64,000 nt of DNA, from NCBI RefSeq assembly GCF_056712565.1, contig NZ_CM160072.1; one strand, given 5' to 3'. The notes beneath the pieces were generated by a model, which saw nothing but the letters and a program-made list of their open reading frames with translations, was not told the DNA's origin and did not search any database. Numbering within the stretch: position 1 is the stretch's first letter; each line of letters opens with the position of its first letter. Below, one piece after another: positions 7,536 through 56,237 of the stretch. The position numbers and the translations under genes are program-made.

Positions 7536-7881
7536 ATGAACGCTACTATAAAAAACAGCTCTGATATCAATGAGTTTGCTAAATGGATTGATGAAAATCT
7601 TGAGGTAGAACTCTCAATAAATATTGAGGCAAAAAAAGCTGGATATTCAAAATGGTATTTACAGAGATTGTTTAAACATATCATTGGTATTTCTATTGGT
7701 AGGTATATTAATAAATGCAGCAGAAGAACTACGTTCTACTACTGAATCGGTCACGACTATCACTTTTAAATATCAGTTTGATTTTCAGCAGACATTTACA
7801 AGGGCATTTACTCGCCGCTTTGGTATAGCTCCTATTGCATACCGAAAACTCGCTAAGGAAGAAGTGAGATGGAATAGTTAG
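7536..7881 (+). pseudogene. MarA/RamA/SoxS-like small AraC-family activator, split by a frameshift
   Basis: Two overlapping ORFs (7536..7745, 7624..7881) carry the two halves of a MarA-type double HTH (AGYSKWYLQRLFK... / ...FDFQQTFTRAFTRRFGIAPIAYRK). Confidence 0.55.
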
Positions 7882-8183
7882 TTATGTAAGCGTTATTTAC
7901 TTAAGCGTGGATATATAAGAATGATATTATCAATATGTTGCTCATGAGTTTTTAATAGCATATAGGCTTGTTAACATAGCCCAGCAATATACTTTGCAGT
8001 GGGAGCAGGTATGCATACAGAACAGTGGGCGAGGACGAGCGTCCCTTTTCGAACAAGGTAGCAAAAGAGGAAGAAGAAAGACAAATACAACTGGGCCTGA
8101 AAGGGTAGTGTTTAAGCCCCCTTTCAGGGGGCCGTGTCAAAGCCGCCCGCTATGCAGATGGTTTTTTACTTTATCTGTTAAGC

Positions 8184-8219
8184 AAAAAAATGCCGCGATA
8201 AAGAAATTGTTACCGCGGC
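8184..8219 (-). terminator. Rho-independent terminator after the extended shell-protein gene
   Basis: On the minus strand GCCGCGG...CCGCGGC stem followed by a run of 7 T, ~20 nt past the stop at 8238. Confidence 0.5.
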
Positions 8220-16525: not shown

Positions 16526-16633
16526 AACATCACTCTATATTTACCAGATGAATTACCTTTTCAGATAAAAGTAACAACCAGAAGTCGTGGAGAAAGTAAC
16601 GGGCTATATATTGATACATAGCCCGTCTGGTAT

Positions 16634-30607: not shown

Positions 30608-31045
30608 TTGACTGGAAAATTATGTTGCAGGAACGTGAGGGCTGAGGAACAAAGCGTATTCCGGCGCTGTCCGTCCTTGCTGTCACTGACACTGATGTCT
30701 GCTTTATTATCGCCTTTATCTCTTCAGGCAGCGGATGTCCGGCGTAGCGGAGATGAAGCATTTATCATTCAGCAGCAGCGTCAGGAAGCCCTTGAGCAAC
30801 AACTGATGCCTTCAGCCCCTGATGTTCGCCTTTCTGCACCTGGCTCTTTTGCACGTAAGATTAATTTTCCTGTTGAAACGCCCTGTTTTCAGATTAAACA
30901 GACGGAACTGGAGGGGGCTGATGCGTTACCACACTGGCTGCCTTTACAAAAAATCGCCAACGGGGCGGTCGGGCACTGTCTGGGGGCGAAAGGAATTAAT
31001 CTGCTGATGAGTACATTGCAGAACCGTCTGGTCGATCATGGTTAA
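30608..31045 (+). pseudogene. N-terminal fragment of a two-partner-secretion outer-membrane transporter (TpsB/ShlB/CdiB-like)
   Basis: Signal-peptide-like start then POTRA-region resemblance ([16 protein letters not shown]...[12 protein letters not shown]); only 145 of the expected ~550 aa. Confidence 0.4.
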
Positions 31046-31116
31046 CCCTTTCCGGTCAGCAGATAACGCGACTGACAGAATTACCCCCGGCATATAACCT
31101 GCAGCGCAGTGCGCAG

Positions 31117-31515
31117 TTGCTGCAGCAACTGATGGTACTTTTCCCCGACAATCCCCATGTTCAGGAAATGGTGGATAACTGGCAGAAGAGCGTAAGGAGT
31201 CGTGCGCTCCCGGAAGAGGCGATGACGGGCTGGAATGAAGGCATGACCCGCTTACAGCAGCTGGCTGAACGCCTGAACCGTCTGGATGAACAGCGGGGAA
31301 AATACATGACGGTCAGTGAACTGAGAACGGAGGTGTTTGGCATCATGCAGGCCTTTAACCGGCATATCCCGGCGGAAGAGCAGTTACGTCGCTATGATGA
31401 AGCCCGTAACCAGAATGGCAGTGAACAGCAGCAAAAACAGGCTGAAATGGCACTGAATCAGCTGATTAATCGTTATCAGGTGGAACACGCTGGCAAACCG
31501 GAGAGGCAGCCATGA
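31117..31515 (+). CDS. Hypothetical protein or gene fragment
   Basis: ORF only; Gln/Glu/Arg-rich. Confidence 0.2.
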   Translation: MLQQLMVLFPDNPHVQEMVDNWQKSVRSRALPEEAMTGWNEGMTRLQQLAERLNRLDEQRGKYMTVSELRTEVFGIMQAFNRHIPAEEQLRRYDEARNQNGSEQQQKQAEMALNQLINRYQVEHAGKPERQP

Positions 31516-31753: not shown

Positions 31754-33190
31754 GTGACAATAGCAAGAGATTCTGTTAGTGGTGAAATTGTTCATGGTCA
31801 TGATCTTCGGGAAATGGATGATCTTTATATACGAACAACCACTTTTGAATGCCCGTATGACAAATGTAGGATACCCGCTACTCCATGTAGCTTCAAAGAA
31901 ATAAATTTAAATCAATCATACTTTCGATATAAAGAGACTCATAGGCCGGGATGTAATATTCATGATCCTAAGAGTAAAAATAAGTGTAACTCAAAGAATA
32001 ATAAAAAGCATAATTCACCACCGGCATTAGCTATATCTCTTCTGAAACTTGATGTGTCTGAAAGAAATTACGACTCTTCTGGCAGAAGAATTATCAAACA
32101 GACGCGAAATGATGAAAAAGATTTGGGAGGTAAAGTACACCCTGTGTCATCTTCAAGCATCAAACCGGTAGTAGACTACTACATTAATGGAGATAATCTC
32201 TATGAACCATTATCAATTCCCCCTTATGGAGTTAGAACTTATAAAGATACTTTTCAACTAATCATCTATAAAGAAGGAATTAGATATAATAAGCCAGCAA
32301 TTTATTTTGGTAAAATTCAATCTAATATACGGCTGGAGATAAATTCGAATAGATATTACCTTACTTTTTTAGCCAGAAAGAAAGGTACCAAACAAGCATA
32401 TAAACTTGAAATTGATGCTTCAGAATGGGATGAAAGTAAAAAGAGTTTTTTCTGTAGTGAGTATGAAAAACAAAGAGCAGAAGCAAATAAGTATTATAAT
32501 GGACTAAAAGACAAGCGCAAAGCAACCAAATATCTTAATATTTTCTTTTTTGGTTTTCCTGATGAGTGCGATAGTTTTTTATTTAAGACTAGTTGTTTTA
32601 AATTGATTTATATCGTTTTCTTAGATGATTTTGATGTGACTTATAATGACAAAAACTACAGCATAGAAAAAGAACAGCTAATTAGAGATGAAATTAACAA
32701 AGAACATTTGACAGATCATCAAAATAGAATAAACCTTGCTGAGGTTGCTGAGGTTGCTGAGGTTGCTGAGGTTGCTGAGGTTGCTGAGGTTGCTGAGGTT
32801 GCTGAGGTTGCTGAGGTTGCTGAGGTTGCTGAGGTTGCTGAGGTTGCTGAGGTTGCTGAGGTTGCTGAGGTTGCTGAGGTTGCTGAGGTTGCTGAGGTTG
32901 CTGAGGTTGCTGAGGTTGCTGAGGTTGCTGAGGTTGCTGAGGTTGCTGAGGTTGCTGAGGTTGCTGAGGTTGCTGAGGTTGCTGAGGTTGCTGAGGTTGC
33001 TGAGGTTGCTGAGGTTGCTGAGGTTGCTGAGGTTGCTGAGGTTGCTGAGGTTGCTGAGGTTGCTGAGGTTGCTGAGGTTGCTGAGGTTGCTGAGGTTGCT
33101 GATTTTGACAAGAGCGAATTTAACCCTTCGGATTCTGATAGGAAAATATGGACTGGGATAAGAAAGCTTATTTCATTCTTTAAAAAATAG
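31754..33190 (+). CDS. Hypothetical AT-rich protein with a Cys/His-containing N-terminal region and a C-terminal (Ala-Glu-Val)x40 tract
   Basis: GTG start preceded by AAAGGAGA; 478 aa ORF; the in-frame 9-bp repeat encodes AEV 40 times. Confidence 0.6.
   Translation: MTIARDSVSGEIVHGHDLREMDDLYIRTTTFECPYDKCRIPATPCSFKEINLNQSYFRYKETHRPGCNIHDPKSKNKCNSKNNKKHNSPPALAISLLKLDVSERNYDSSGRRIIKQTRNDEKDLGGKVHPVSSSSIKPVVDYYINGDNLYEPLSIPPYGVRTYKDTFQLIIYKEGIRYNKPAIYFGKIQSNIRLEINSNRYYLTFLARKKGTKQAYKLEIDASEWDESKKSFFCSEYEKQRAEANKYYNGLKDKRKATKYLNIFFFGFPDECDSFLFKTSCFKLIYIVFLDDFDVTYNDKNYSIEKEQLIRDEINKEHLTDHQNRINLAEVAEVAEVAEVAEVAEVAEVAEVAEVAEVAEVAEVAEVAEVAEVAEVAEVAEVAEVAEVAEVAEVAEVAEVAEVAEVAEVAEVAEVAEVAEVAEVAEVAEVAEVAEVAEVAEVAEVAEVADFDKSEFNPSDSDRKIWTGIRKLISFFKK
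32738..33097 (+). repeat. Perfect tandem repeat, 40 copies of GCTGAGGTT (360 bp)
   Basis: Read directly: unit starts at 32738 and repeats without a single mismatch to 33097, then a partial GCT. Confidence 0.95.
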
Positions 33191-33221
33191 ATCTATAGCA
33201 GTCATCATATTGGATTATTGG

Positions 33222-33257
33222 TGAAGTGGTACACTGAATTTGCCCACCTGAACAGAG
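33222..33257 (+). mobile_element. Solo IS911/IS3-family terminal inverted repeat (IS scar)
   Basis: TGAAGTGGTACACTGAATTTGCCCACCTGAACAGAG differs at only ~2 positions from the terminal repeat of the intact IS911 at 41881..41914. Confidence 0.5.
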
Positions 33258-33321
33258 TTGGTTTTATCAAACTTGTAGTTTACTCAATGACGTAAAAATT
33301 GGTGATGTAAAGGATATAAAA

Positions 33322-35106
33322 ATGTGGTCAGACAAAGAGTCATCAGAAGACTACCTAAATTTTGGTGAAGTATCTCAGTTAGCCGTGGATGTACTTACCA
33401 CGAAAGATATGTTACCAGTATCTATCGGAATTTTTGGAAACTGGGGGGCAGGTAAATCCTCTCTGTTAAAACTGATAGAGCAAAAACTTGAGCAAGACGA
33501 CAAAGATTGGATTGTTATCAATTTTGACTCTTGGCTCTATCAGGGGTACGACGACACCCGTGCCGCACTTCTTGAAGTCATCGCTACAGAATTGACAAAA
33601 GCTGCTGAAGGTAATTCAGCCCTTATATCAAAAACTAAGAGACTCCTTAGTCGAGTTGATGGTTTTAGAGCTATGGGATTACTAGCTGAGGGTACAGCTT
33701 TAATGGCAGGATTACCTACTGGCGGTTTGCTTTCTAGGGGGATTGGTGCATTAAGAAATATCACCGATGGCATCCAGAGCCAGGAAGAGTATGAGGCTTT
33801 AGGCAATATAGCTAAAGAAGGTAAAGAAACTGCTTGTGGTTTGATTAAACCACAAACAAAAAAAAGCCCCCCTCAGCAGATTGATGCCTTTCGTAAGGAA
33901 TATGGGGAAATTCTAGAAGAACTTGGAAAGCCACTCATTGTGGTAATAGATAACCTAGACCGCTGTCTCCCTGCCAATGCTATCCATACACTTGAAGCTA
34001 TCAGGCTATTCCTTTTCTTGACTAATACAGCCTTTATTATTGCAGCAGATGAGGACATGATTCGCTCTTCTGTGGCTGATTACTTCAAAGGGGCATCACA
34101 GCGCCATCAAATAGATTATCTGGATAAGCTAATCCAGGTTCCTATTCGGGTGCCTAAGGCTGGGGTCCGTGAGATCCGTTCGTATCTGTTCATGCTTTAT
34201 GCCATTGAACATGGCTTAGAAGGCGAAAAAATAACTATGCTCCGTGAGGGCTTAGAGAAGGCGTTACAGCAATCCTGGAAAGATGAACCAATCTCACGTC
34301 AGGAGGCCTTAAAAATGACTGGTGAAGCGGATGATAGCAACCTCGCGCTGGCGTTTGCGCGTGCTGACCGTATTGCTCCCATTTTAGCCAACTCTCCAAT
34401 TATTCATGGTAATCCCAGGATCGTTAAACGCTTGTTGAATGTTGTGAAAATGCGATCTCAAATTGCGAAGCGACGAGCAATGCCTTTGGATGAAGCAATT
34501 ATTACTAAGCTAGTAATTTTTGAACGCTGTGTTGGAGTGGATGGCACCGCTGATTTATATCATCTCGTGGATATTGAACAAGGTGTTCCCCAGATACTTA
34601 AACAGCTTGACGATAATGGCGGTCAAATACCTACTGATGCACCAAAGACATGGACTGATAGTCCAACGACTAAATCTTTCATCAGTCAATGGGCCCAACT
34701 TGAACCTCGTCTTGGTGGGATTGACTTAAGGGCCGCCATATATCTGTCCCGAGAAACTATGCCAATAGGTGCATATGTGGTTGGTTTATCGCCATCTGGA
34801 CGGGAAGTACTAAATGCACTAATTGAATTGAAAAACACTAGTTCTCCTACAGCAGAAAACCTTTTGAAAGCACTTCCTCGTGAGGAGCAAATACCTGTAA
34901 TGGAAGGTTTAATTAACCAGTTACGGCAGGTATCAGATTGGGATCGTAAGCCCAGAGGCTTTTCCGGTGCATGTCTGTTGGCCCGCTACTCAACAGATGC
35001 AGCCAGCATATTAATTCGTTATCTACAGGAATTACAGTTGGGGATGAAACGACCAGCGTGGATGACTGCAGCATTAAAAGATGAACAATGGAATAAGGAC
35101 GCTTAA
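33322..35106 (+). CDS. qatA: KAP-family P-loop NTPase (QatA-like)
   Basis: Walker A GNWGAGKSS followed by the KAP-characteristic INFDSWLY block; 594 aa. Confidence 0.8.
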   Translation: MWSDKESSEDYLNFGEVSQLAVDVLTTKDMLPVSIGIFGNWGAGKSSLLKLIEQKLEQDDKDWIVINFDSWLYQGYDDTRAALLEVIATELTKAAEGNSALISKTKRLLSRVDGFRAMGLLAEGTALMAGLPTGGLLSRGIGALRNITDGIQSQEEYEALGNIAKEGKETACGLIKPQTKKSPPQQIDAFRKEYGEILEELGKPLIVVIDNLDRCLPANAIHTLEAIRLFLFLTNTAFIIAADEDMIRSSVADYFKGASQRHQIDYLDKLIQVPIRVPKAGVREIRSYLFMLYAIEHGLEGEKITMLREGLEKALQQSWKDEPISRQEALKMTGEADDSNLALAFARADRIAPILANSPIIHGNPRIVKRLLNVVKMRSQIAKRRAMPLDEAIITKLVIFERCVGVDGTADLYHLVDIEQGVPQILKQLDDNGGQIPTDAPKTWTDSPTTKSFISQWAQLEPRLGGIDLRAAIYLSRETMPIGAYVVGLSPSGREVLNALIELKNTSSPTAENLLKALPREEQIPVMEGLINQLRQVSDWDRKPRGFSGACLLARYSTDAASILIRYLQELQLGMKRPAWMTAALKDEQWNKDA

Positions 35107-35858
35107 TGGGAACATCACAATCAAGTAAAGGTCCAGGAGGTGGCTCTCCGCTGGTTCCACCATGGGCTGATGATCAGCCACAGCAACCGTTACCCTCGCC
35201 GCAAGAAAGGAGGTTTGCGCCATTTCGAGAATCGTTGGGAAATGCGGTATCAAATGGAAATCGAGCAGATTTCAGAAAAGCCATAGGGCACTACGCGCGA
35301 AAAGCCTCCGGAGGGAGCAGTAACGCTGCTCGGCGATTAGGGAGTGTCACGCAAGCTGGGGCCGAATTATTTGGGGCTTTAGTGGGAATGCCTTCGGCTC
35401 CCGGAGAACCAAGCATCGATTTGGGCAGTTTGGCAGGCCTTCCATGCGAAATAGCAATATCAACTATTGCTCAAGCTTTAACATCACAGGATGGTGACTC
35501 AGAAAAGATCTGTGCGGCCATGAACCATGCTTTAGTGGAGGCTCTTGATGGCGTAGAAATTTTCGATCCTCAAAAAATAACTGATGGTGTGATTGTTGAC
35601 ACAATGATTGGTTATCTAGCGGAAAGTATTTTCCTTCAGATGGTAATGGATTCTAATAGGGCATGGAACAAAGCAGATACACCTTCAAAGGCAATTCATG
35701 CAGAAATTGAACTCCGGGAATTGATTAAAGTTGTTGTTGATAAACATATGGCACCAAAACTTGCCGGTAACATAAGATCGTTCACACGAAACCAAATGGT
35801 AAAAATTGAACGTCAGGCCATTATTGAGGCCTGGCAAGAATGGGAGGCATACCAGTGA
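35106..35858 (+). CDS. qatB: Protein of unknown function (QatB-like position), Gly/Pro-rich N-terminus
   Basis: Start overlaps the qatA stop (TAATG); no motif recognised; call rests on operon position. Confidence 0.55.
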   Translation: MGTSQSSKGPGGGSPLVPPWADDQPQQPLPSPQERRFAPFRESLGNAVSNGNRADFRKAIGHYARKASGGSSNAARRLGSVTQAGAELFGALVGMPSAPGEPSIDLGSLAGLPCEIAISTIAQALTSQDGDSEKICAAMNHALVEALDGVEIFDPQKITDGVIVDTMIGYLAESIFLQMVMDSNRAWNKADTPSKAIHAEIELRELIKVVVDKHMAPKLAGNIRSFTRNQMVKIERQAIIEAWQEWEAYQ

Positions 35859-37159
35859 CACAATTAGTTTTCCATCATAAACATCACCATTTGCCGCCAG
35901 CAAGTGAGAAAGTGTTACCTGTTCAGCTATATGGATTAAGTGGTCAGAGGCGCGGAGATATATCTGTTATCGGGAATCCTGCGATTGATCGGATCAGACG
36001 TTTGGGAGTACAGCTTCCAGCTAAGGTCATGGATTTTCTGAGTGTTGCATTAGCAGTAACTGCAGCAGATACTTTCGTTCAGCGTGAAAGTTCCGAGGAT
36101 GGTTGGACCCGCCAATTGTCGTTACGACTCCCCCTTCATGAACCATCCAGATGGATTAGTCTAAAGAAAGAACTTGAGAGTGCTTTGCATTTTCTTAGTG
36201 GAGACATCTGGGATTTCGAATTTTGTGACGATGGTTATGCACCGCCAGAGCCTTATAGCCAGCATTCAAGGCATCGTCTGATTAAGCTAAAAGGGCTTGA
36301 CTGTGTCAGCTTATTTTCAGGAGGTCTGGATTCAGCTATTGGTGCAATAGATCTTCTGGCTGCAGGGCGCGCTCCACTTTTGGTTAGTCATGCTTATAAG
36401 GGGGACAAGTCTCGTCAAGATCAGATCGCTGAAAAATTAAGTGGCCAATTTTCGCGCTTTGAGATTAATGCTGACCCACACATTTATCAAGGCGTGACTG
36501 ATATTACGATGCGAACTCGTAGCCTCAATTTTCTTGCCTTTGCGGCCGTAGGTGCTTGTGCCGTACAAGAGATATCTCAACAAGAAAAGATTGATTTGTT
36601 CGTACCTGAAAATGGATTTATCTCATTAAATGCACCACTTACTCCACGGCGGATAGGTTCGCTGAGCACACGAACAACACATCCACATTTTATTACGAGC
36701 ATACAAAAGATCTTTGATGCGCTCGGTATTTCTTGTCAAATAATCAATCCATATCAGTTTAAGACAAAAGGAAAAATGATCTCCGAATGTTCAAATAAGC
36801 AGCTCTTATCTAAAATTGTGGAAAGTACAGTATCCTGCAGTCATTGGAAACGAATGGGGCAGCAATGTGGGGTATGTATACCGTGTATCATTCGACGAGC
36901 ATCACTTCATGCAGGGGGAATTAGTAGAGATGTTGAATATATTTTCCAGTCCTTAGCTAAAGTAATGAATGAAATAGATCGCAGGGACGACCTGATCGCC
37001 CTTAGGATTGCGATCACGCAGAAATCGACTTTGAAAATAGGTACATGGATTGCCAAAAGTGGCCCTTTGCCTACGGCAGAATTTGATAATTTCAAGCAAG
37101 TATTTAAGGATGGCCTAGATGAGGTTGAAAGCTATTTACTGAGTGAGAACATAGTATGA
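35840..37159 (+). CDS. qatC: QueC-like PP-loop ATPase (QatC-like)
   Basis: PP-loop SGGLDS (LFSGGLDSAIGAIDLL) in a 439 aa protein larger than housekeeping QueC; overlaps both neighbours. Confidence 0.8.
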   Translation: MGGIPVTQLVFHHKHHHLPPASEKVLPVQLYGLSGQRRGDISVIGNPAIDRIRRLGVQLPAKVMDFLSVALAVTAADTFVQRESSEDGWTRQLSLRLPLHEPSRWISLKKELESALHFLSGDIWDFEFCDDGYAPPEPYSQHSRHRLIKLKGLDCVSLFSGGLDSAIGAIDLLAAGRAPLLVSHAYKGDKSRQDQIAEKLSGQFSRFEINADPHIYQGVTDITMRTRSLNFLAFAAVGACAVQEISQQEKIDLFVPENGFISLNAPLTPRRIGSLSTRTTHPHFITSIQKIFDALGISCQIINPYQFKTKGKMISECSNKQLLSKIVESTVSCSHWKRMGQQCGVCIPCIIRRASLHAGGISRDVEYIFQSLAKVMNEIDRRDDLIALRIAITQKSTLKIGTWIAKSGPLPTAEFDNFKQVFKDGLDEVESYLLSENIV

Positions 37160-37881
37160 GCATCGATATGCACTGTCATCTAGACTTATATCCTCGGCCA
37201 GACCTCGTGGCTGAAGAAAGTAAGCGTCGAGGGACTTATATTCTGTCGGTGACAACAACACCTAAAGCATGGCATGGTACTTCTTTATTGGCTAAAGAAA
37301 GTCAACGAATCCGAACTGCTCTTGGGCTACATCCTCAAATCGCGCATCAAAGATCGCATGAGTTAGACCTGTTTGATTCATTGCTTTCGGAAACTAAGTA
37401 TGTAGGGGAAATAGGGCTTGATGGTGGACAGGGATTTAAAGAACATTGGGATATTCAATTGAAAGTGTTCCGACACATTCTCAACAGTGTAAATCGGGCT
37501 GGTGGCAAGATTATGACTATCCATAGTCGGGGAAGTGCATCAGCGGTGCTTGATGAGATTGAAAATATCGATGGGGTGGCAATATTGCATTGGTTCACTG
37601 GAACACCTAAGCAGCTTGAAAGGGCAATTGATTTAGGATGCTGGTTCTCAGTGGGGCCTGCTATGCTCGATACAATAAAGGGTAAGGCCTTAGTTTTGAA
37701 AATACCCAAATCACGCATTCTTACAGAAACAGATGGGCCATTTGCTAAGTTTCGTAATGACCCACTAATGCCATGGGATAGTGGGATTGCAGAGAAACAG
37801 TTAGCCGCATTATGGGGGATTAGTCAGATGGAGGTTAATGCTCAGCTAGTTGATAATTTTAAGGTATTATGTACATCATAA
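37156..37881 (+). CDS. qatD: TatD-family metal-dependent nuclease (QatD-like)
   Basis: N-terminal HCHLD motif and downstream His/Asp/Glu pattern of the TatD TIM-barrel hydrolase; ATGA overlap with qatC. Confidence 0.85.
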   Translation: MSIDMHCHLDLYPRPDLVAEESKRRGTYILSVTTTPKAWHGTSLLAKESQRIRTALGLHPQIAHQRSHELDLFDSLLSETKYVGEIGLDGGQGFKEHWDIQLKVFRHILNSVNRAGGKIMTIHSRGSASAVLDEIENIDGVAILHWFTGTPKQLERAIDLGCWFSVGPAMLDTIKGKALVLKIPKSRILTETDGPFAKFRNDPLMPWDSGIAEKQLAALWGISQMEVNAQLVDNFKVLCTS

Positions 37882-38433
37882 GAATGAAAAACTTAGATAT
37901 GCATTTACAGTTCAATTCATTTTTCGTCATCAGTTAATTACACATAAAATTAAAAGTAAGAATATATCTACCCTGTGAATGAGTAAGGCGGATTTATATA
38001 GTTTGTAATTAGTTTAAATGTAAGCAGTTCGTCAGAGTGCGTATTCCGCTCTATTCGATCACGGATTGGCCGTTATGACCCGATCTCGATGGAAGTTATT
38101 GGGTGATCCCCTTCCATGAAAATATGCACCGAAGCTCCCGCAGAGGTTTCCGTGGGCGAAGGCATGATTCTGTCCGAGAGCCGGATGTGTTAGAAGCGCA
38201 TGTCCGCTTCGATGAGCGGGGTGTGGAAACAGGATTTATGGTCAGGACAGTAAGGCACCGCCAATCGAAAGAGGCGGCAACAGATATGCCTGACCTGTAA
38301 AATTACCGCGCCACATCTTGACTCTACCCGTTTTCCAAGCGCCCCCCCTTATAGAACGTACACTGGATGGTGATACCGGCTATACATCGCATATTTGACA
38401 GTCAGCTTGCTGAATTTTTCATTGGCTGCAGCA

Positions 38434-39009
38434 TCAGGGCGTTTTCCAGATGACAGCTATAGTAAAAATGATCGCCAGACTGGCGAGAAAGCAGAGCGAA
38501 AGCGGGATTTTGTCCTTCAGTGTCAGGTTCAGCTCTTCTTCAACCCATGCTTTTTCAAATTCACAGTAAAATTTATAATGTGCGTACCAGTTACTTCCGA
38601 AGATCTGTTTGCTGATGACCGTGCCGTAAAACCGGGACATGATAGCGTCGATGGATTGTTGTGTACGCTGATAGTCAAAGTTTGCATCGCTTTTTACGTT
38701 GCGGTAGATGACTTCAAGTTCATTAAAAATTTTGGTCTGCTCAATCCCCGCACTTTCATAACTCTGCTTTTCCGAGTCATAAAACTGAATGTACATTGTA
38801 GCAACACCAAATATAATTAATATCGCGGAAATGACGTTTGTGGCCAGCTCAGGAATAAAAAGGGCGAACACACCGACAGCAAGAGAAATAAAGCTAATCC
38901 AACCGGATGCCTTACAAATCAGATCATAGGTGGCAAAGTTTTTCTTAGCGCCAAATCCAACGTTATAACCATGTCGGGCGATTAATTTCAGCATCTCTGA
39001 TTGCGTCAT
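38434..39009 (-). CDS. SLATT-like two-transmembrane effector protein
   Basis: 191 aa with two central hydrophobic helices (WISFISLAVGVFALFIPELATNVISAILIIFGVATMYI) and a C-terminal hydrophobic segment; 8 nt downstream of the SMODS gene. Confidence 0.6.
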   Translation of the reverse strand: MTQSEMLKLIARHGYNVGFGAKKNFATYDLICKASGWISFISLAVGVFALFIPELATNVISAILIIFGVATMYIQFYDSEKQSYESAGIEQTKIFNELEVIYRNVKSDANFDYQRTQQSIDAIMSRFYGTVISKQIFGSNWYAHYKFYCEFEKAWVEEELNLTLKDKIPLSLCFLASLAIIFTIAVIWKTP

Positions 39010-39016
39010 AAAAACC

Positions 39017-40345
39017 TCAGCTTATGGGAACTTCAATCTGGGCCCGGGCAACCACAACCTCATTTTTTATCACATAGCATTCTACCATGTGATCTCCGCG
39101 GAAGTCGGTAGTTTCTTTCTTCGTACAGTAGCCGCCGTCCGAAACGATTTGTCCCCGGATCATATTTCTTCTGCGTGCTTCGTCACCCACGTTCAGTACC
39201 TTCCACATAACGGTGTAGGGTTCCTCTGCCTCCATTTCTGTCAAGTCTGCCCGGAAAAGGAGAGATTTTCGAGCGGAGAGGCGGAATCTTCTGATAAGCA
39301 TCTCCCTCAGGCTTCTGGGAGGGAAACCATCCTGGGTTACGGTACAGTCAAGGTTGAGTGAGTACCTGATATCCACCGGATATTTATCCTCTATAAACTC
39401 TTCGGTATCGGTCCAGGGAACAGCATCTGCCGCATGCGATTCCAGACCAAGACGGGCTTCCATAATACCCACTTTACGTCTGGGGAAGGCTCGTCCGAAC
39501 ACTTTGCGCCAGCGGTCATTTTCACTGGCAGCCCCCTCAGCGTCTAAGGCATCACAACATAATTCATACGCGTGTTTCGCTGCCCGGCCAAACCAGGGAG
39601 ATTTAACACGTACATGCTGATTACTGCCTAACGCGAGATACCTTTCCTTTCTCTCCTCATTTGACAGATATTCAAAAAAGTCTCTGGCGAGGGCTCCCAG
39701 GCTGCCATTTCCGGTATTGTCATAATCTGATGTTGATGAAAGAAAGCGATACGCTAGTGTGTCTATCAGTAAGCCACCCATATTGACGCCATGCAGGTTC
39801 TTCCAGGCTCTGATCATTTTACACAGCTTGCGCAGATTATTGGATTTATCTCGCGAAAATGCGGTCATGGCCGCCTTTTCGTGAAGAGGTTTTGTAATGC
39901 GCCATGCTCCTCCATTATAGCTTTCAGGGAATTTAAAGCTGTCATCATCCTGTCTGAATACAGGTTGAACCTCGACATAAAAGTTTTTAAAGATGATCTG
40001 AACAACCAGTCTGTCCTTTTTCACAGTCTGGTCAGGATATTCTTCCGCCAGAATGTTTCTGACATCTGTAAGCAATGCAGACTGACCATTATCCTTACGG
40101 TTATAATATTCATACTGATTGGGGGGCATAATATAAAGCATATCCAGATCGGATATGCCTTTTATTGCGGTATGTCTGCCTACTGACCCCACTTTCAAGC
40201 GGTTTGCTACCCGGGAACTCGTTCCTCTGAACGCAAGATTTAATGACTTGGTTATTTTTCGATAGTGATAGCTGATCTTTTTTGCCTGTTTGAGGTCAAG
40301 ATTCAAATTTTCAAGAAATTCGCTGAACAATTCCCTGTGGCTCAT
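39017..40345 (-). CDS. SMODS-type (cGAS/DncV-like superfamily) nucleotidyltransferase with C-terminal sensor-like domain
   Basis: Pol-beta NTase motif GS-x10-DLD (GSVGRHTAIKGISDLDMLYI) in a 442 aa protein. Confidence 0.75.
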   Translation of the reverse strand: MSHRELFSEFLENLNLDLKQAKKISYHYRKITKSLNLAFRGTSSRVANRLKVGSVGRHTAIKGISDLDMLYIMPPNQYEYYNRKDNGQSALLTDVRNILAEEYPDQTVKKDRLVVQIIFKNFYVEVQPVFRQDDDSFKFPESYNGGAWRITKPLHEKAAMTAFSRDKSNNLRKLCKMIRAWKNLHGVNMGGLLIDTLAYRFLSSTSDYDNTGNGSLGALARDFFEYLSNEERKERYLALGSNQHVRVKSPWFGRAAKHAYELCCDALDAEGAASENDRWRKVFGRAFPRRKVGIMEARLGLESHAADAVPWTDTEEFIEDKYPVDIRYSLNLDCTVTQDGFPPRSLREMLIRRFRLSARKSLLFRADLTEMEAEEPYTVMWKVLNVGDEARRRNMIRGQIVSDGGYCTKKETTDFRGDHMVECYVIKNEVVVARAQIEVPIS

Positions 40346-40479
40346 GGTGTTTCCTTTGGCATGTGAAACATTAGCTTACATTATCATTACACCTTATAAA
40401 AACCAAGATCTTGGGAGGTGAGCGTTCTGCATGGCTTTATGACTTAAACGTAAGCGTTAACGGAGTGCCGTATTGACGC

Positions 40480-41842: not shown

Positions 41843-41911
41843 TGGAGCACCTGTGTTGTTCTGAGGTGAGCATATCACCTCTGTTCAGGTGGCCAAATTC
41901 AGTGTGCCACT

Positions 41912-42289
41912 TCAAGCCGGGAGCGGCGTCAGCCAGTCTCCCTTTACCCGCGCTTTTTCGGAAAGCCCACCCCAATGTTTTTCTCCTACACCCCAGCCGG
42001 TCAGCAGGACCTTATCCCCGGTCTGATATTCAGGATGTGAGCTGGCGGACACTGTACCGGCAAAATCAATGCCTGGCACCATTGGAAAGTGCCGGACGAT
42101 AGGCCCGCGGCCCGTAATAGCCAGTGCGTCTTTGTAGTTGATAGATGAACAGTCGACATTGACCTCCACATCCCCCTGTGGCAGCTCGCTTTCAGCGATT
42201 TCAGCAATTTGGGCACTGTGGCGACCATACATCTTACTGATTAATAAGGATTTAAACATTTTTTTCTCGTCTTTCTGGTTTGATGTCAT
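41912..42289 (-). pseudogene. N-terminal ~115 codons of a YhdH/AcuI-like zinc-independent MDR oxidoreductase, truncated exactly at the IS911 end
   Basis: [42 protein letters not shown]...[26 protein letters not shown] matches the YhdH N-terminus; reading frame runs into the IS911 terminal repeat. Confidence 0.65.
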
Positions 42290-43627: not shown

Positions 43628-43822
43628 CTTTCCTACATTCGTAGGACTTTGATTACATATAGCAAGGGTTAATTCTTATATACATAGAATAAATTAGGAA
43701 TATAATGAATTTTATCGTGACGACCTTATTTATAATTAATTTATATTGTCAGAGAAATTAGTGTCCACAACATGAAGCCTTACAAAGAGATTCTATGATT
43801 TAAAAAAAATAAGAGCCAGCTT

Positions 43823-45292
43823 ATGCATATCGATTCGACTGAAAAAAATAATAAACAAAAGTTGGGCTTGCTTGCGCTAACATCCATTGTCGTGAGCTCG
43901 ATGATCGGCAGCGGCGTTGACGGACTCCCCCAGAATATGGCGGAGAATTCTGCCGTGGGCCCGGTGGCGATAGCATGGATAGTCTGTGGTATCGGCATGT
44001 TTTTCATCTCCAGAACTTTTATCGTGCTGTCAAACATTAGACCTGATCTCCAGTCAGGAGTTTATATGTATGCCCGGGAAGGGTTCGGCCGATTTACGGC
44101 ATTTAACGTCGCCTGGGGCTACTGGCTGATGACTATATTCAGCAACGTCGCCTTTGCCATTATGGTGATGGATACGCTGAATTATTTCTTACCAGGTGAT
44201 TTCAAGGGAGGGAACAATATTCCTTCCGTTATCGGTGCCTCTTTGCTGATATGGGGATTCAACTTTTTAGTCCTCTCCGGTACCCGCATTGCCGGGTCGA
44301 TTAACATCGTCGGCACGCTGGCCAAACTGATCCCGCTGGTGGCCTTTATTATTATTCTCATGCTGTTTATGAAGTACACCACGTTCGCAGATAACGTCTG
44401 GGGGCACAGCGCGAGTAAGGCCAGTCAGGACCTAGGCTCTATTTTCTCACAGGTAACTTCACCGCTTAGCGTGGCACTCTGGAGCTTCATCGGCGTTGAG
44501 GGGGCTGTCGCTCTTTCCGGTCGGGCCAAAAATAAACGCGACGTGGGTAAAGCCACATTCATTGGCTTCGTTGTATCACTGATTATCTGTCTGCTGGTCT
44601 CCATCCTGCCGTTTGGCGTGCTGACTCAACATGAGCTCAGCGCAATTCCAACCCCATCCACCGCCGGTATTCTGAAGATTGTTGTCGGTGAATGGGGGAA
44701 GATTATGATTATCTTGGGGGTGCTGATTTCGGTGCTTACCAGCTGGCTGGCGTGGACCATCATCTGCGCCGAACTGCCTATGGTGGCCGCGCAGAACGGC
44801 ACATTCCCGAAACCGTTCAGCAAAAAAAATGTGAAGGGTTCGGCCTCGGTTTCGCTTTATATAAGCAGTGCGTTTATGCAAATCGTCGTACTTCTGGTCT
44901 ACTTTTCTAACGATGCCTGGCTTGCAATGCTGGCTATCTCTACCCTGACCGTTTTACCTGCGTATTTAATGACCACGGCATACCTGTTTAAACTATGTAT
45001 TAGCGGCGAGTATGCCAGCTATACCACGAATCACAGCCGCAGCGCCGCGCTGGTCAGCAGTATTATCGGCTTTGTATTCTGCCTGTTTATGTTCTACGCC
45101 AGTGAAATCAAATATCTGGCGATGGTTCCGGTGCTGCTTACGCTGGGCGTGCCCCTGTTTATCTGGGCAAGAAAAAAAGACGATCGCGCAGATAAAATAT
45201 TTACGCTACGCGAACTGGCATTTTTTATTTTACTGCTGGTCCTCGACATCATTGTTTTTATTCTACTGCATTATAAAACGATACATTTTTAG
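43823..45292 (+). CDS. APC-superfamily basic amino acid/polyamine antiporter (ArcD/PotE/CadB-like), copy 1
   Basis: 489 aa, 12-13 TM profile, conserved N-terminal block (LGLLALTSIVVSSMIGSGV) shared with copy 2. Confidence 0.75.
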   Translation: MHIDSTEKNNKQKLGLLALTSIVVSSMIGSGVDGLPQNMAENSAVGPVAIAWIVCGIGMFFISRTFIVLSNIRPDLQSGVYMYAREGFGRFTAFNVAWGYWLMTIFSNVAFAIMVMDTLNYFLPGDFKGGNNIPSVIGASLLIWGFNFLVLSGTRIAGSINIVGTLAKLIPLVAFIIILMLFMKYTTFADNVWGHSASKASQDLGSIFSQVTSPLSVALWSFIGVEGAVALSGRAKNKRDVGKATFIGFVVSLIICLLVSILPFGVLTQHELSAIPTPSTAGILKIVVGEWGKIMIILGVLISVLTSWLAWTIICAELPMVAAQNGTFPKPFSKKNVKGSASVSLYISSAFMQIVVLLVYFSNDAWLAMLAISTLTVLPAYLMTTAYLFKLCISGEYASYTTNHSRSAALVSSIIGFVFCLFMFYASEIKYLAMVPVLLTLGVPLFIWARKKDDRADKIFTLRELAFFILLLVLDIIVFILLHYKTIHF

Positions 45293-45396
45293 TCCAGATT
45301 AATTCACAGCAAGTTAAGGTGACGATAATGTCTGTTTCTTGGGCATGACATCCTCACAGTTAAATACTATCTGAACAGTAACCGTGGAGACACCTA

Positions 45397-47766
45397 ATGA
45401 AATTTAACCACAATCTTTTATTTATTTCCTCACAATATCTTGATGGCGACAACCCTTCGCAGCAGGTACTGGAAGAGCTTCAAACCGAACTCGCGGAACG
45501 CGGTTTTAAAATTCATATCACGCACCAGATCTCTGATGGATTAAAAATCATCGAAAAAAGCCCCCAATACAGCGGGATTGGTTTTTACTGGGAGCCAGAC
45601 AATCCGACCTTTGCAGAAGAGCTACAGCACTTTATCAGCATATTCCGCAAAAGAAATGCCACGACGCCGCTGATAATTTTCTCAGAACAGAATATTACCG
45701 ATCGTATCCCACTCGACGTCTTAAAAGAGGTCAGCGAATATGTTTATCTGTTCTCTGAATCCGCAGCCTTCACTGCCAATCGACTGTACTCCTTAGTCCA
45801 CCGCTATGCGGATAAGCTTCTTCCTCCCTACTTTAAAACCCTTAAGGACTTTACCGAGGACGGTGACTATTACTGGGACTGCCCGGGGCATATGGGGGGA
45901 ATGGCCTATCTGAAACATCCTGTTGGCATTGAGTTCATTAACTTCTTTGGCGAAAACATGATGCGCGCTGATATTGGCGTGGCTACCGCGGAGATGGGGG
46001 ATTATCTGATCCACGCCGGACCGCCTAAAAAATCGGAAGAAATTGCGGCCCGACTGTTTGGCTCTGATTGGACCTTCTACGGTGTTTCCGGCTCATCGGG
46101 GTCGAACCGTATTGTGGCCCAGGCTGCGGTTGGCGCAGATGAAATTGCCATTATTGACCGAAATTGCCACAAGTCACTTAATCATGGCCTGACCTTGTCT
46201 CAGGCAAGGCCGGTTTACCTGAAACCTACCCGCAACGCGTGGGGGCTGATTGGGCCTATCCCGACCGGGCGCCTGAAGAAGGCCAGTATTGATGCGCTGG
46301 TGGCAAACAGCCGACTGGCATCTGGTGCGGTCAGCCAGTCCCCGTCCTACGCCGTGGTAACCAACTGCACCTATGATGGCTTCTGTTATAACGTGAACGA
46401 TGTAGTCAGACACCTGGGTGAAAGCGCACCGCGCATCCATTTTGATGAAGCATGGTATGCCTATGCGCGTTTCCATCCGCTATACCAGAGTCGCTATGCA
46501 ATGGACGCGGAGGAAACGCCAAATCGTCCAACCCTATTCGCCGTACAGTCCACCCATAAAATGCTGCCCTCACTCTCCATGGCCTCAATGATTCATGTGA
46601 AGAAAAGCGATCGCGCGCCGCTTAATTTCGATGACTTTAACGATGCCTTTATGATGCACGGCACGACCTCACCCTACTACCCGATCATTGCATCAATTGA
46701 TGTGGCAGTAAGCATGATGGAGGGTGAATCCGGTTATTCGCTTGTGCAGGAGTCAATTGAAGAAGCGATTGCCTTCCGTAAAGCCGTGGTCAGCGTCAAG
46801 CGCCAGCTCCAGGAGCAGGAAGGTGGTGACGCCTGGTTCTTCGATGTGCTTCAGCCAACCGAAGTGCAGGACAGCGATTCTGGGCAGCGATACAGTTTTG
46901 AAGAGGCACCCGTATCGCTGCTGAGCCACAGCGCCGACTGCTGGTCGCTGCGCTCCGGTGAGCGCTGGCACGGTTTTGCCGATGATGATCTGGTCGAAAC
47001 CAACAGTATGCTCGATCCAGTAAAAGTGACCCTGACTTGTCCAGGGATCGGCCCGAAGGGAGAATACCAGAAAAACGGTATTCCGGGATATTTGCTGACC
47101 CGTTTTCTCGATGACCGTCGCATTGAAATTGCCCGTACTGGTGACTACACCGTGCTGATCCTGTTCTCCGTCGGCATCACCAAAGGCAAATGGGGAACTC
47201 TGATTGAAAGCCTGCTGGCCTTTAAAAAGCATTACGACAATGACGATCTGGCCACAGATGCTATCCCGTCGCTGAAAGCGCATTCTCCACACTACGACAC
47301 GCTAACCCTCAAGGAGCTATGTCAGATAATGCATGAAAAAATGGATGAGCTGGAGCTGATGTCGCATATCAACGACGCGGTAAACACCGATCCGGAACCA
47401 GTTATGACCCCGGCAGAAGCCTATCAGAAAGTCGTACGCTACAAAACCGAGCATATCCGGCTGGATGATTTTAGCGGCAGAATTGCCGCCAGCATGCTCG
47501 TCCCATATCCCCCAGGCATTCCTGTACTGATGCCGGGCGAACGGATGCCGCAAGGTAACAAGGGCATTATTGGCTATCTGCGCGCCCTGCAGGAATTCGA
47601 TAAGCAATTCCCAGGTTTTGAACATGAGATCCAGGGCGTTAACGTCGATGAAAACGGGGACTTCTGGGTCAGAGCGATTGTGGAAGAAGAACGCGATGGG
47701 CAGTCGCTACCCGGCCACATAACCTTTAAACGCCAGGTCTCTGGTATTAAAAAGGGCCGCCAGTAG
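45397..47766 (+). CDS. Fold-I PLP-dependent Orn/Lys/Arg decarboxylase (inducible AdiA/SpeF/CadA type), substrate unassigned
   Basis: 789 aa; collinear with AdiA-type decarboxylases (YWDCPGHMGG, DRNCHKS, STHKML PLP-lysine region, PYPPGIPVLMPGE). Confidence 0.8.
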   Translation: MKFNHNLLFISSQYLDGDNPSQQVLEELQTELAERGFKIHITHQISDGLKIIEKSPQYSGIGFYWEPDNPTFAEELQHFISIFRKRNATTPLIIFSEQNITDRIPLDVLKEVSEYVYLFSESAAFTANRLYSLVHRYADKLLPPYFKTLKDFTEDGDYYWDCPGHMGGMAYLKHPVGIEFINFFGENMMRADIGVATAEMGDYLIHAGPPKKSEEIAARLFGSDWTFYGVSGSSGSNRIVAQAAVGADEIAIIDRNCHKSLNHGLTLSQARPVYLKPTRNAWGLIGPIPTGRLKKASIDALVANSRLASGAVSQSPSYAVVTNCTYDGFCYNVNDVVRHLGESAPRIHFDEAWYAYARFHPLYQSRYAMDAEETPNRPTLFAVQSTHKMLPSLSMASMIHVKKSDRAPLNFDDFNDAFMMHGTTSPYYPIIASIDVAVSMMEGESGYSLVQESIEEAIAFRKAVVSVKRQLQEQEGGDAWFFDVLQPTEVQDSDSGQRYSFEEAPVSLLSHSADCWSLRSGERWHGFADDDLVETNSMLDPVKVTLTCPGIGPKGEYQKNGIPGYLLTRFLDDRRIEIARTGDYTVLILFSVGITKGKWGTLIESLLAFKKHYDNDDLATDAIPSLKAHSPHYDTLTLKELCQIMHEKMDELELMSHINDAVNTDPEPVMTPAEAYQKVVRYKTEHIRLDDFSGRIAASMLVPYPPGIPVLMPGERMPQGNKGIIGYLRALQEFDKQFPGFEHEIQGVNVDENGDFWVRAIVEEERDGQSLPGHITFKRQVSGIKKGRQ

Positions 47767-47840
47767 GCGGGGGAAAGAACAATACCGTCGGATCGCCTGC
47801 AATCCGACGGCAATATTATAGAATAGCTGAGGGAAACGTT

Positions 47841-56161: not shown

Positions 56162-56237
56162 TGGTGCCCGGACTCGGAATCGAACCAAGGACACGGGGAT
56201 TTTCAATCCCCTGCTCTACCGACTGAGCTATCCGGGC
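56162..56237 (-). tRNA. pheU: tRNA-Phe (anticodon GAA)
   Basis: Reverse complement reads GCCCGGATAGCTCAGTCGGTAGAGCAGGGGATTGAAAATCCCCGTGTCCTTGGTTCGATTCCGAGTCCGGGCACCA; pheU rather than pheV inferred from the yjdC-dsbD-cutA-dcuA-aspA flank. Confidence 0.95.

What the first reader, a model, noticed from the sequence alone, without database searches (positions are those of the whole stretch)
33322..37881. Four-gene KAP-NTPase / unknown / QueC-like / TatD operon: a Qat-type anti-phage system
Four co-directional genes with overlapping stop/start codons (TAATG at 35106, 19-nt overlap at 35840, ATGA at 37156) encode a KAP P-loop NTPase (GNWGAGKSS, FDSWLY), a motif-less 250 aa protein, an enlarged QueC-like PP-loop ATPase (SGGLDS) and a TatD-type nuclease (HCHLD). 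To my recollection this gene content and order is that of the Qat defence system (QueC-like associated with ATPase and TatD). It sits in an AT-rich islet bounded by IS relics, far from any queuosine biosynthesis genes, so the QueC homolog is unlikely to be housekeeping. How an NTPase, a QueC-like enzyme and a DNase cooperate is mechanistically unclear, which makes this the most system-like unexplained module in the window.
Basis: partly seen in the sequence, partly recalled or inferred. Interest (0 to 1): 0.8.

Follow-up and report, generated by a model that had tools for sequence, protein, structure and literature searches.

The report
Known Qat anti-phage operon (qatABCD)
This is an intact copy of the already described four-gene Qat anti-phage defence system of E. 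coli, identical to copies already annotated in about 250 sequenced strains, so it is a correct call but not a new one.

Summary
The four co-directional, overlapping genes exist as described. They are a complete qatABCD operon.

- **Family matches:** PADLOC Qat models match all four proteins end to end (QatA 1130 bits, QatB 433, QatC 467, QatD 322). NCBIfam QatC and QatD pass their curated cut-offs.
- **Already annotated:** The DNA is 100% identical to loci annotated qatC/qatD, and qatB in newer records, in about 250 complete E. coli genomes. These include ATCC 11775 and APEC O1, with which the whole window is colinear.
- **Residues intact:** Every residue shown by experiment to be essential in the prototypes is present.
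  - QatB has the N-terminal MGTS and SPLVPPWAD motifs.
  - QatC has SGGLDS, T-R-T in place of the QueC Tyr/Asp, and four zinc cysteines.
  - QatD has the TatD metal ligands, and QatA has Walker A and B.
- **QatB fold:** A confident QatB model matches only solved QatB structures.
- **Not queuosine synthesis:** No queuosine genes lie in the window.
- **Subtype:** This is a shorter form than the solved P. aeruginosa and NCTC9009 systems. Its A-B-C-D order is kept in nine plasmid loci from nine other genera.

Two refinements. QatC most likely starts at GTG 35855 (GGGAGG ribosome site, GTGA overlap), not ATG 35840. Qat plus a neighbouring, independent type I CBASS lie between IS3-family inverted-repeat ends. 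Verdict: already known, low interest.

The parts
33322..35106 (+). qatA: KAP-family P-loop NTPase, 594 aa. Walker A is GNWGAGKS (39-46, Lys45). Walker B is IVVIDNLD (206-213). The C-terminal ~215 aa have no known family.
   Evidence: PADLOC QatA PDLC02210, 1129.9 bits over 1-593 of 593. Pfam KAP_NTPase 2.9e-53 over residues 24-379. NCBIfam QatA scores 383.8 bits, below its 600-bit cut-off. Walker residues are invariant in 5 orthologs. No solved relative.
35106..35858 (+). qatB: 250 aa, the proposed protein substrate of QatC. It has a disordered N-terminal tail of about 30 aa with the MGTS and SPLVPPWAD motifs, followed by an all-alpha globular domain.
   Evidence: PADLOC QatB PDLC02212, 432.9 bits, end to end. 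NCBIfam QatB scores 74.6, below its cut-off of 100. No Pfam match. M1 G2 T3 S4 S6 G9 S14 P15 L16 P18 W20 A21 are invariant in 10 orthologs. AlphaFold model pLDDT 86.5, with residues 1-18 and 23-26 below 50. The only significant fold matches are solved QatB chains 9y01_A and 9y02_A, probability 1.00, TM 0.60/0.68.
35842..35847 (+). GGGAGG Shine-Dalgarno for qatC. It is embedded in the conserved Trp-Glu codons near the 3' end of qatB, 7 nt upstream of GTG 35855.
   Evidence: Sequence. TGGGAG is kept in 9 of 10 aligned loci.
35855..37159 (+). qatC: QueC-like PP-loop ATP pyrophosphatase. It is 434 aa from GTG 35855, or 439 aa if the annotated ATG 35840 is used. In 434-aa numbering: D60, SGGLDS 155-160, STRTTHP 271-277 (T272 and T274 replace the QueC Tyr/Asp), and zinc cysteines C328, C338, C341, C344.
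   Evidence: PADLOC QatC 466.8 bits. NCBIfam QatC 413.4 bits, above its cut-off of 280, while the QueC model TIGR00364 scores 21.2 against a cut-off of 150.3. phmmer to solved QatC: 9zee_B 217 bits, 9vlk_A 186 bits. A subtype profile scores 290 and 270 bits against the same chains. Listed residues are invariant in 5 orthologs. Start-codon evidence.
37156..37881 (+). qatD: TatD-family metal-dependent nuclease, 241 aa. It has H6-x-H8, H59, E85, H123, H145 and D193.
   Evidence: PADLOC QatD 322 bits. NCBIfam QatD 331.5 bits, above its cut-off of 230. Pfam TatD_DNase 3e-43. Solved relatives 9xsn_A (254.9 bits) and 3gg7_A (225.4 bits). Listed residues are invariant in 5 orthologs.
33222..33269 (.). 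Solo IS3-family terminal inverted repeat. This is context, marking the left edge of the inserted Qat-CBASS block. It is not a functional part of Qat.
   Evidence: 48 nt, 85% complementary to the outer end (41867-41914) of the complete IS3 element. Homology with a Qat-less E. coli island ends at about 33198.

Best explanation
The locus is a complete, apparently functional QatABCD anti-phage defence operon of a short-form subtype. It sits in a tRNA-Phe genomic island of an ExPEC/APEC-type E. coli.

Likely mechanism, taken from the prototypes and marked shown or inferred:
1. QatB is made and loses Met1, exposing Gly2. This was shown by Edman sequencing for the NCTC9009 protein and is inferred here from the identical MGTS start.
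2. QatC is a zinc-containing PP-loop ATP pyrophosphatase. It binds QatB 1:1 and takes the flexible QatB N-terminal tail into its active site. This was shown crystallographically for the prototypes. It is inferred here from conserved tail motifs, the conserved QatC loop and C-terminal extension, and the QatB fold.
3. QatC uses ATP to adenylate an as yet unidentified carboxylate. This is probably not 7-carboxy-7-deazaguanine, because T-R-T replaces the Tyr/Asp that recognise it. QatC then joins the activated group to the Gly2 amine of QatB. This step is inferred by analogy with Cap9-CdnD deazaguanylation in type IV CBASS and has never been reconstituted.
4. Modified QatB then blocks phage replication. 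QatBC alone suffices against lambda-vir in the prototypes.
5. The QatB tail also tethers the TatD nuclease QatD. The DNA-binding, oligomeric KAP NTPase QatA acts separately. Both widen or tune the range of phages restricted.
For: - **Identity:** End-to-end PADLOC Qat hits for all four proteins. NCBIfam QatC and QatD pass their cut-offs. Pfam gives KAP_NTPase and TatD_DNase. The DNA is 100% identical to loci annotated qatC/qatD in RefSeq, and qatB is named in newer records.
- **Operon conservation:** The A-B-C-D order is kept in Xenorhabdus, Shewanella, Calothrix, Acinetobacter, Sphingomonas, Moraxella, Vibrio, Azospirillum and Teredinibacter plasmids, each with unrelated flanks.
- **Essential residues present and invariant:** QatB MGTS plus the P/W motif. 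QatC SGGxDS, TxT, four cysteines and D60. QatD metal ligands including H59 and D193. QatA Walker A and B.
- **QatB fold:** It matches only solved QatB.
- **Mechanism in the literature:** PMC13279940, bioRxiv 10.1101/2025.11.03.686418, PMC13376578 and PMC13329287. The last shows that QatC does not complement a queC deletion.
- **QatD activity:** QatD degrades DNA in vitro, and H59A and D193A abolish defence against T4(C) (bioRxiv 10.1101/2022.06.16.496414).
Against: - No experiment on this exact sequence could be traced. The solved and tested prototypes are only distantly similar: QatC 186-217 bits and QatB 24-38 bits by phmmer.
- QatA and QatB fall below the NCBIfam curated cut-offs.
- The chemical step has never been reconstituted. 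No modification of QatB was detected by mass spectrometry in the prototype, and no ATP pyrophosphatase activity was seen with CDG.
- No sigma-70-like promoter was found in the 131 nt upstream of qatA, so expression is assumed, not shown.
- Studies disagree on whether QatA and QatD are required.
Confidence: 0.9

Rival explanations
1. Same Qat system, but centred on the nuclease. QatD is the obligatory effector that degrades phage DNA directly, QatA senses or loads it, and QatBC only licenses QatD.
For: QatD H59A and D193A abolished defence of an E. coli Qat against T4(C). Purified QatD degraded DNA, and growth curves suggested direct targeting rather than abortive infection. Those residue numbers coincide with invariant H59 and D193 of the window's QatD, so that study may have used this subtype. 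Gao 2020, as cited, found all four genes needed against lambda. The QatB tail binds QatD.
Against: QatBC alone gave full defence against lambda-vir for both the P. aeruginosa and an E. coli operon. QatA and QatD mutants kept partial activity. QatD cut modified and unmodified T4 DNA equally in vitro, which does not match the in vivo specificity.
Confidence: 0.25
2. An intact-looking but silent or decaying passenger of the island, with no current defence function.
For: No promoter-like site lies directly upstream of qatA. The block is surrounded by pseudogenes and IS debris. Some genomes carry decayed copies: qatA deleted, an IS66 insertion, or only the first 607 nt of the queried block (33200-40400) left (H111, H112, H115). 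The Moraxella qatC is split by an IS3.
Against: All four ORFs are intact with every catalytic residue. The DNA is 99.8-100% identical across about 240 genomes of different pathotypes. Translational-coupling overlaps and ribosome sites are preserved.
Confidence: 0.07
3. Qat and the adjacent CD-NTase/SLATT pair form one combined, type IV CBASS-like system in which QatC modifies the cyclase.
For: The two lie tail to tail, 552 nt apart, inside the same IS3-bracketed block. They co-occur in 239 genomes. Type IV CBASS does use a QueC-like enzyme.
Against: The cyclase starts MSHREL, with no N-terminal glycine, and is on the opposite strand. No TGT-like Cap10 is present. The CBASS pair occurs alone on small plasmids at 96.5% identity (H113, H114). 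Qat occurs without CBASS in all nine plasmid loci. QatC is the long QatC type, not the ~185-aa Cap9 type.
Confidence: 0.02
4. Housekeeping queuosine (QueC) and TatD genes rather than a defence system.
For: There is a weak QueC Pfam match, and TatD is a widespread housekeeping fold.
Against: The QueC model TIGR00364 scores 21.2 bits against a cut-off of 150.3. T-R-T replaces the Tyr/Asp that recognise the substrate. No que genes occur in the 64 kb. The locus is in a horizontally acquired island present in only about 5% of E. coli. Prototype QatC does not complement a queC deletion.
Confidence: 0.01

Closest known systems
QatABCD of E. coli NCTC9009 (Gao et al. 2020 prototype; structures 9VLK and 9VLL)
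   Same: Same four genes in the same order. QatB has the same MGTS start and tail motif. QatC has the same SGGxDS, TxT and four-cysteine zinc site, plus N- and C-terminal extensions. QatD has the same TatD ligands, and QatA the same KAP Walker motifs.
   Different: It is a distinct, shorter subtype. QatC is 434-439 aa against 465, and QatB 250 aa against 282 (lengths of the deposited chains). The zinc site is C-x9-CGxCxxC rather than C-x19. Similarity is low: QatC 186 bits and QatB 38 bits by phmmer. The window's QatA and QatB match PADLOC's second Qat models (PDLC02210 and PDLC02212) far better than the others, and fail the NCBIfam cut-offs.
P. aeruginosa qatABCD (PMC13279940; QatB-QatC structures, listed as 9Y01/9Y02 in the fold library and 9ZEE/9ZEF in the sequence library)
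   Same: The QatB fold matches: TM 0.60 (normalised to the query) and 0.68 (to the target), probability 1.00. QatC aligns over residues 46-434 with all catalytic residues in register: S156/D160/S161, T278/T280 and C334/C354/C357/C360 correspond to S160/D164/S165, T277/T279 and C333/C343/C346/C349 in 439-aa numbering.
   Different: QatB sequence identity in the structural alignment is only 16-17%. The QatB tail is about 30 aa here against 65 aa. The QatC basic patch R410/R414 is Lys/Lys here, by my reading of the alignment.
Type IV CBASS Cap9-CdnD deazaguanylation (Wassarman et al. 2025, as cited)
   Same: A QueC-fold PP-loop enzyme holds the Gly-initiated flexible N-terminus of a partner protein in its active site. 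This is the basis for the proposed chemistry.
   Different: The partner, QatB, is unrelated to CD-NTases. QatC is about 250 aa longer than Cap9 and has remodelled the nucleobase pocket. There is no Cap10 and no cyclic-nucleotide signalling. The acyl donor is unknown.
Canonical QueC (7-cyano-7-deazaguanine synthase; TIGR00364, PF06508)
   Same: Rossmann-like PP-loop core, SGGxDS, and a Cys4 zinc site whose C-x9-CxxCxxC spacing is close to the canonical C-x8.
   Different: Fails the family cut-off. Lacks the Tyr/Asp substrate residues. Has extra N- and C-terminal domains. No que gene context.

Membership tests
Qat (QatABCD) anti-phage system | Four-gene operon in the order KAP NTPase, QatB, QueC-like, TatD nuclease, co-directional and tightly coupled | tested here: met
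   (overlaps of 1, 4 or 19, and 4 nt). The same order occurs in 9 plasmid loci from 9 genera.
Qat (QatABCD) anti-phage system | QatA: KAP-family P-loop NTPase matching QatA models | tested here: met
   PADLOC PDLC02210 1129.9 bits end to end. Pfam KAP_NTPase 2.9e-53. Caveat: NCBIfam QatA scores 383.8, below its cut-off of 600, which indicates a divergent subtype.
Qat (QatABCD) anti-phage system | QatB: all-alpha globular domain preceded by a disordered N-terminal tail that starts MGTS and carries a conserved Pro/Trp motif | tested here: met
   MGTS and SPLVPPWAD are invariant or nearly so in 10 orthologs. The model has a disordered tail and about 10 helices. The only fold matches are solved QatB. 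PADLOC QatB 432.9 bits. NCBIfam 74.6, below its cut-off of 100.
Qat (QatABCD) anti-phage system | QatC: QueC-fold with SGGxDS, invariant TxT in place of Tyr/Asp, a Cys4 zinc site, and N- and C-terminal extensions | tested here: met
   NCBIfam QatC 413.4, above its cut-off of 280. Residues. Aligned to solved QatC over nearly its full length. The zinc loop is 10 residues shorter than in the prototypes.
Qat (QatABCD) anti-phage system | QatD: TatD-family nuclease with intact metal ligands | tested here: met
   NCBIfam QatD 331.5, above its cut-off of 230. Pfam 3e-43. H6, H8, E85, H123, H145 and D193 are invariant.
Qat (QatABCD) anti-phage system | QatB and QatC form a 1:1 complex with the QatB N-terminus in the QatC active site | not testable with these tools
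   No complex prediction or biochemistry was available. Support is indirect only, from conserved interface elements.
Qat (QatABCD) anti-phage system | Confers phage resistance when expressed | not testable with these tools
   An E. coli '46-1' Qat was tested with QatD H59A and D193A mutants. The numbering fits this subtype, but no sequence was available to confirm it.
Canonical QueC (preQ0 synthase) | Scores above the TIGR00364 cut-off and keeps the Tyr/Asp CDG-binding residues | tested here: not met
   21.2 bits against 150.3. T-R-T at the equivalent site.
Canonical QueC (preQ0 synthase) | Genomic association with queD, queE or queF | tested here: not met
   None in the 64-kb window, using the annotation of the colinear APEC O1 region.
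Type IV CBASS (Cap9/Cap10) | Short Cap9-type QueC, a TGT-like Cap10, and a CD-NTase with an N-terminal Met-Gly-Gly-Ser in one operon | tested here: not met
   QatC is 434 aa. No TGT gene is present. The neighbouring cyclase starts MSHREL on the opposite strand and is found without Qat.

The most novel reading that the evidence does not exclude
The short-form Qat clade found here may differ functionally from the two solved prototypes. Its features are QatA and QatB below the NCBIfam cut-offs, a QatB tail of about 30 aa, and a QueC-like C-x9-C zinc loop. It might use a different acyl donor for the QatB N-terminal modification, or depend strictly on the QatD nuclease. It might then be the version in which the still unknown QatC reaction can finally be reconstituted. 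A lesser possibility is that the IS3-repeat-bracketed Qat plus CBASS block is a mobilisable two-system defence cassette.
Probability: 0.1. Interest if true: 0.45.

Novelty: already known. Interest (0 to 1): 0.15.

Why it matters
It matters little as a discovery. Qat was described in 2020, has PADLOC, DefenseFinder-type and NCBIfam models, and has three QatBC structural papers from 2025-26. This exact sequence is already labelled qatC/qatD in RefSeq.

Three modest points are useful:
1. The common E. coli B2/ExPEC Qat is a different subtype from the one used for structures. Conclusions about tail length, the zinc loop and the need for QatA and QatD may not transfer automatically.
2. The RefSeq start of qatC in E. 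coli is probably five codons too long. QatA and QatB of this subtype escape NCBI naming because they fall below the curated cut-offs.
3. The central open question, which is what QatC attaches to QatB and how that stops phage, remains open. This locus does not make it more tractable by itself.

Tried and rejected
1. **Upstream ORF.** I tested whether the 478-aa ORF at 31754-33190, with its AEV repeat, belongs to the operon. I rejected this. It has no Pfam match and only a 24-bit PADLOC hit. It also occurs at 96% identity in E. coli JNE070796 followed by unrelated cargo and no Qat.
2. **Link to the adjacent CBASS.** Rejected (see rivals).
3. **Promoter and terminator.** The consensus scan found nothing convincing between 33190 and 33322, and no + strand terminator after qatD. 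Counts did not exceed shuffles.
4. **Transposition of the IS3-bracketed block as a unit.** The flanks are ATTGG and AGCCG, with no target-site duplication. Transposition as a unit is therefore unsupported.
5. **Identifying the E. coli 46-1 Qat sequence.** The J Virol paper is not held. The preprint supplement gives only a clone size of 5635 bp. The link to this subtype rests on residue numbering alone.
6. **Solved QatA relatives.** None were found.
7. **Phage-borne copies.** One partial QatB-like hit was found in a Pasteurella phage. I did not pursue it.
8. **Script access to plasmid loci.** The sandbox did not receive most of them, so I made the alignments with the alignment tools instead.
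Full report
**Observation.**
The junction sequences are TAATG, a 19-nt overlap and ATGA. The quoted motifs are present: GNWGAGKS, SGGLDS and HCH, and FDSWLY is visible in the QatA translation. The operon is 43.8% GC against 47.8% for the window, and 500-nt bins across it run from 0.39 to 0.50.

**Identity.**
- PADLOC's Qat models match all four proteins end to end: QatA PDLC02210 at 1129.9 bits over 1-593 of 593, QatB PDLC02212 at 432.9, QatC at 466.8 and QatD at 322.
- NCBIfam's QatC (413.4, cut-off 280) and QatD (331.5, cut-off 230) equivalogs pass. QatA (383.8, cut-off 600) and QatB (74.6, cut-off 100) match but fall short.
- Pfam gives KAP_NTPase (2.9e-53), TatD_DNase (3e-43), a weak two-piece QueC match and nothing for QatB.
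- The 4560-bp operon is 100% identical to chromosomal loci in E. coli ATCC 11775, APEC O1 and many others. It matches 258 of 5426 complete genomes, and 252 of the 259 matching records are at 99% identity or more. RefSeq already labels qatC and qatD there and, in newer records, qatB.
- The whole window is colinear with APEC O1 at 99.9-100% identity.

**Not housekeeping.**
The QueC model TIGR00364 scores 21 bits against a 150-bit cut-off. The Tyr/Asp that recognise 7-carboxy-7-deazaguanine in QueC and Cap9 are T-R-T here. No que gene is annotated anywhere in the colinear 64 kb. The literature shows that the prototype QatC cannot restore queuosine in a queC deletion strain (PMC13329287).

**Subtype and conservation.**
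- The window's proteins are not the ones that were crystallised.
  - QatC scores 217 bits against 9zee_B and 186 bits against E. coli NCTC9009 9vlk_A.
  - QatB scores only 38 and 24 bits against the solved QatB chains.
- QatB is 250 aa against 282-287 (deposited chain lengths), and QatC is 434-439 aa against 465-466.
- The first zinc cysteine is 9 rather than 19 residues before CGxCxxC.
- Relatives of this short form sit on plasmids of Xenorhabdus (QatB 91% identical), Shewanella, Teredinibacter, Calothrix, Acinetobacter, Moraxella, Azospirillum, Vibrio and Sphingomonas. The order is always A-B-C-D and the flanks are always different: Tn3, integrases, IS elements. That is independent evidence for a selected four-gene unit.
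- Residues invariant across these orthologs:
  - QatB M1 G2 T3 S4, S14 P15 L16, P18, W20 and A21.
  - QatC D60, S155-S160, T272 R273 T274, and C328, C338, C341, C344.
  - QatD H6, H8, H59, E85, H123, H145 and D193.
  - QatA Walker A (G39 to S46) and D210/D213.
- An AlphaFold model of QatB built on 10 orthologs (pLDDT 86.5, pTM 0.81) has a disordered N-terminus and an all-helical body. Its only significant PDB matches are the two QatB chains of the P. aeruginosa QatBC structures, at probability 1.00 and TM 0.60/0.68. Everything else has an E-value above 0.2.

**A correction to the gene model.**
- The ATG at 35840 is created by the conserved Glu-Trp codons of qatB.
- Seven nucleotides after the GGGAGG at 35842-35847 lies GTG 35855, which overlaps the qatB stop as GTGA.
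- In ten aligned loci an ATG or GTG is always available at this overlap position. The upstream ATG runs into a stop in Acinetobacter and Vibrio.
- RefSeq uses the downstream start in Xenorhabdus, Calothrix, Sphingomonas, Azospirillum and Teredinibacter.
- I therefore place qatC at 35855-37159 (434 aa). The '19-nt overlap' is most likely a 4-nt one.

**Mechanism.**
What is shown, all on prototypes:
- QatB and QatC form a 1:1 complex that is sufficient for defence against lambda-vir.
- The QatC PP-loop serines, the TxT pair, the zinc cysteines and both extensions are essential. So are QatB Gly2 and the Pro/Trp tail segment.
- The QatB N-terminus, with Met1 removed, lies in the QatC active site next to ATP.
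- QatA is an oligomeric DNA-binding protein that does not bind the others.
- QatB binds QatD through its N-terminal 46 residues.
- Purified QatD degrades DNA, and H59A and D193A abolish defence against cytosine-containing T4.

What is inferred: QatC adenylates an unknown carboxylate and transfers it to the Gly2 amine of QatB, by analogy with Cap9-CdnD deazaguanylation. This has not been reconstituted. CDG is not turned over, and no modified QatB has been detected. All sequence features on which this model rests are present in the window's proteins, so I apply the model here. The main rival is a nuclease-centred version in which QatD is the obligatory effector.

**Context.**
- The operon lies in a large island at tRNA-Phe (56165-56237), with an integrase at about 54.7-56.0 kb. 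Core genes dicD, dsbD, cutA, dcuA, aspA and groES lie beyond it.
- A 48-nt IS3-family terminal repeat relic (33222-33269) lies 31 nt after the upstream ORF and 52 nt before qatA. It is 85% complementary to the outer end (41867-41914) of a complete IS3 element.
- Between the two repeats lie Qat, a convergent type I CBASS and an IS66 fragment. The CBASS consists of a CD-NTase at 39017-40345 and a SLATT 2TM effector at 38434-39009.
- Homology with a Qat-less version of the island stops at about 33198. The block therefore looks like IS-mediated cargo, although there is no target-site duplication.
- The CBASS pair occurs alone on small plasmids, and none of the nine plasmid Qat loci has a CBASS neighbour. 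The two systems are therefore independent.

**Verdict.**
The feature is already known and already annotated. The residual mechanistic mystery belongs to the Qat family as a whole, not to this locus. Interest: 0.15.

Noticed in passing
window 31754-33190 (+); repeat at 32736-33102: A 478-aa ORF with no Pfam match. Its C-terminal third is a perfect 9-bp tandem repeat (40 units here, 42 in APEC O1) that encodes (Ala-Glu-Val)n. It is a length-variable repeat inside a protein of unknown function. The ORF also occurs, without Qat, in E. coli JNE070796, next to different cargo.
   Followed up: partly
window 38434-40345 (-): A two-gene type I CBASS. The CD-NTase is 442 aa with a C-terminal sensor-like extension (PADLOC Cyclase 585.7 bits). 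The effector is a SLATT 2TM protein of 191 aa (NCBIfam SLATT_6, 223 bits). The pair is convergent with qatD, and it is found alone at about 96.5% identity on small E. coli plasmids.
   Followed up: partly
window 33222-33269 and 41867-41914: A 48-nt IS3-family inverted repeat pair brackets an 8.7-kb block holding Qat, CBASS, an IS66 fragment and an IS3 element. The left arm is a solo relic. There is no target-site duplication.
   Followed up: partly
window 35840 versus 35855: RefSeq is inconsistent about the qatC start. It uses the ATG five codons upstream in E. coli and Shewanella, and the stop-overlapping start in the other genera. In most records QatA and QatB of this subtype are named only 'KAP family P-loop NTPase fold protein' (or 'P-loop NTPase fold protein') and 'hypothetical protein', because they fall below the NCBIfam cut-offs.
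   Followed up: yes
window 38037-38071: A motif of about 35 bp lies in the 552-nt spacer between qatD and the SLATT gene. It recurs at up to 33 places per genome and on many plasmids, sometimes next to IS110-family transposases. It may be an IS end or a preferred insertion site ([H50], 88).
   Followed up: no
window 12709-14406 (-): A group II intron. Rfam matches domains D1-D4 and the Intron_gpII model. The annotation shows reverse transcriptase and maturase fragments there.
   Followed up: no
window ~8200-28600 (-): A complete grp operon (grpA to grpS), encoding a glycyl-radical propanediol-utilisation microcompartment. It is carried in the same tRNA-Phe island, upstream of the defence block.
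   Followed up: no
window 30608-31515 (+): Gene fragments immediately left of the AEV-repeat ORF: a POTRA-domain protein and a VasL (type VI secretion) protein. In the Qat-less relative the VasL fragment follows tssB and tssC, so the island backbone carries a decayed T6SS locus.
   Followed up: no
window ~43800-49340 (+): A module of two basic amino acid/polyamine antiporters flanking an Orn/Lys/Arg decarboxylase. IS1 copies lie on both sides of it within the island.
   Followed up: no
L010 (Moraxella osloensis pNP7-2) 5648-8206: In this Qat locus an IS3-family insertion splits qatC. It is a natural knockout of the signature gene. Decayed E. coli copies also exist: qatA deleted in EC529, and an IS66 insertion in MLI104K2.
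   Followed up: no
Pasteurella phage vB_PmuM_CFP3 (OQ025560.1) 16610-16897: The only phage hit to QatB covers just the C-terminal 96 residues at 44% identity (E = 1e-17). It could be a phage-borne QatB fragment or decoy.
   Followed up: no
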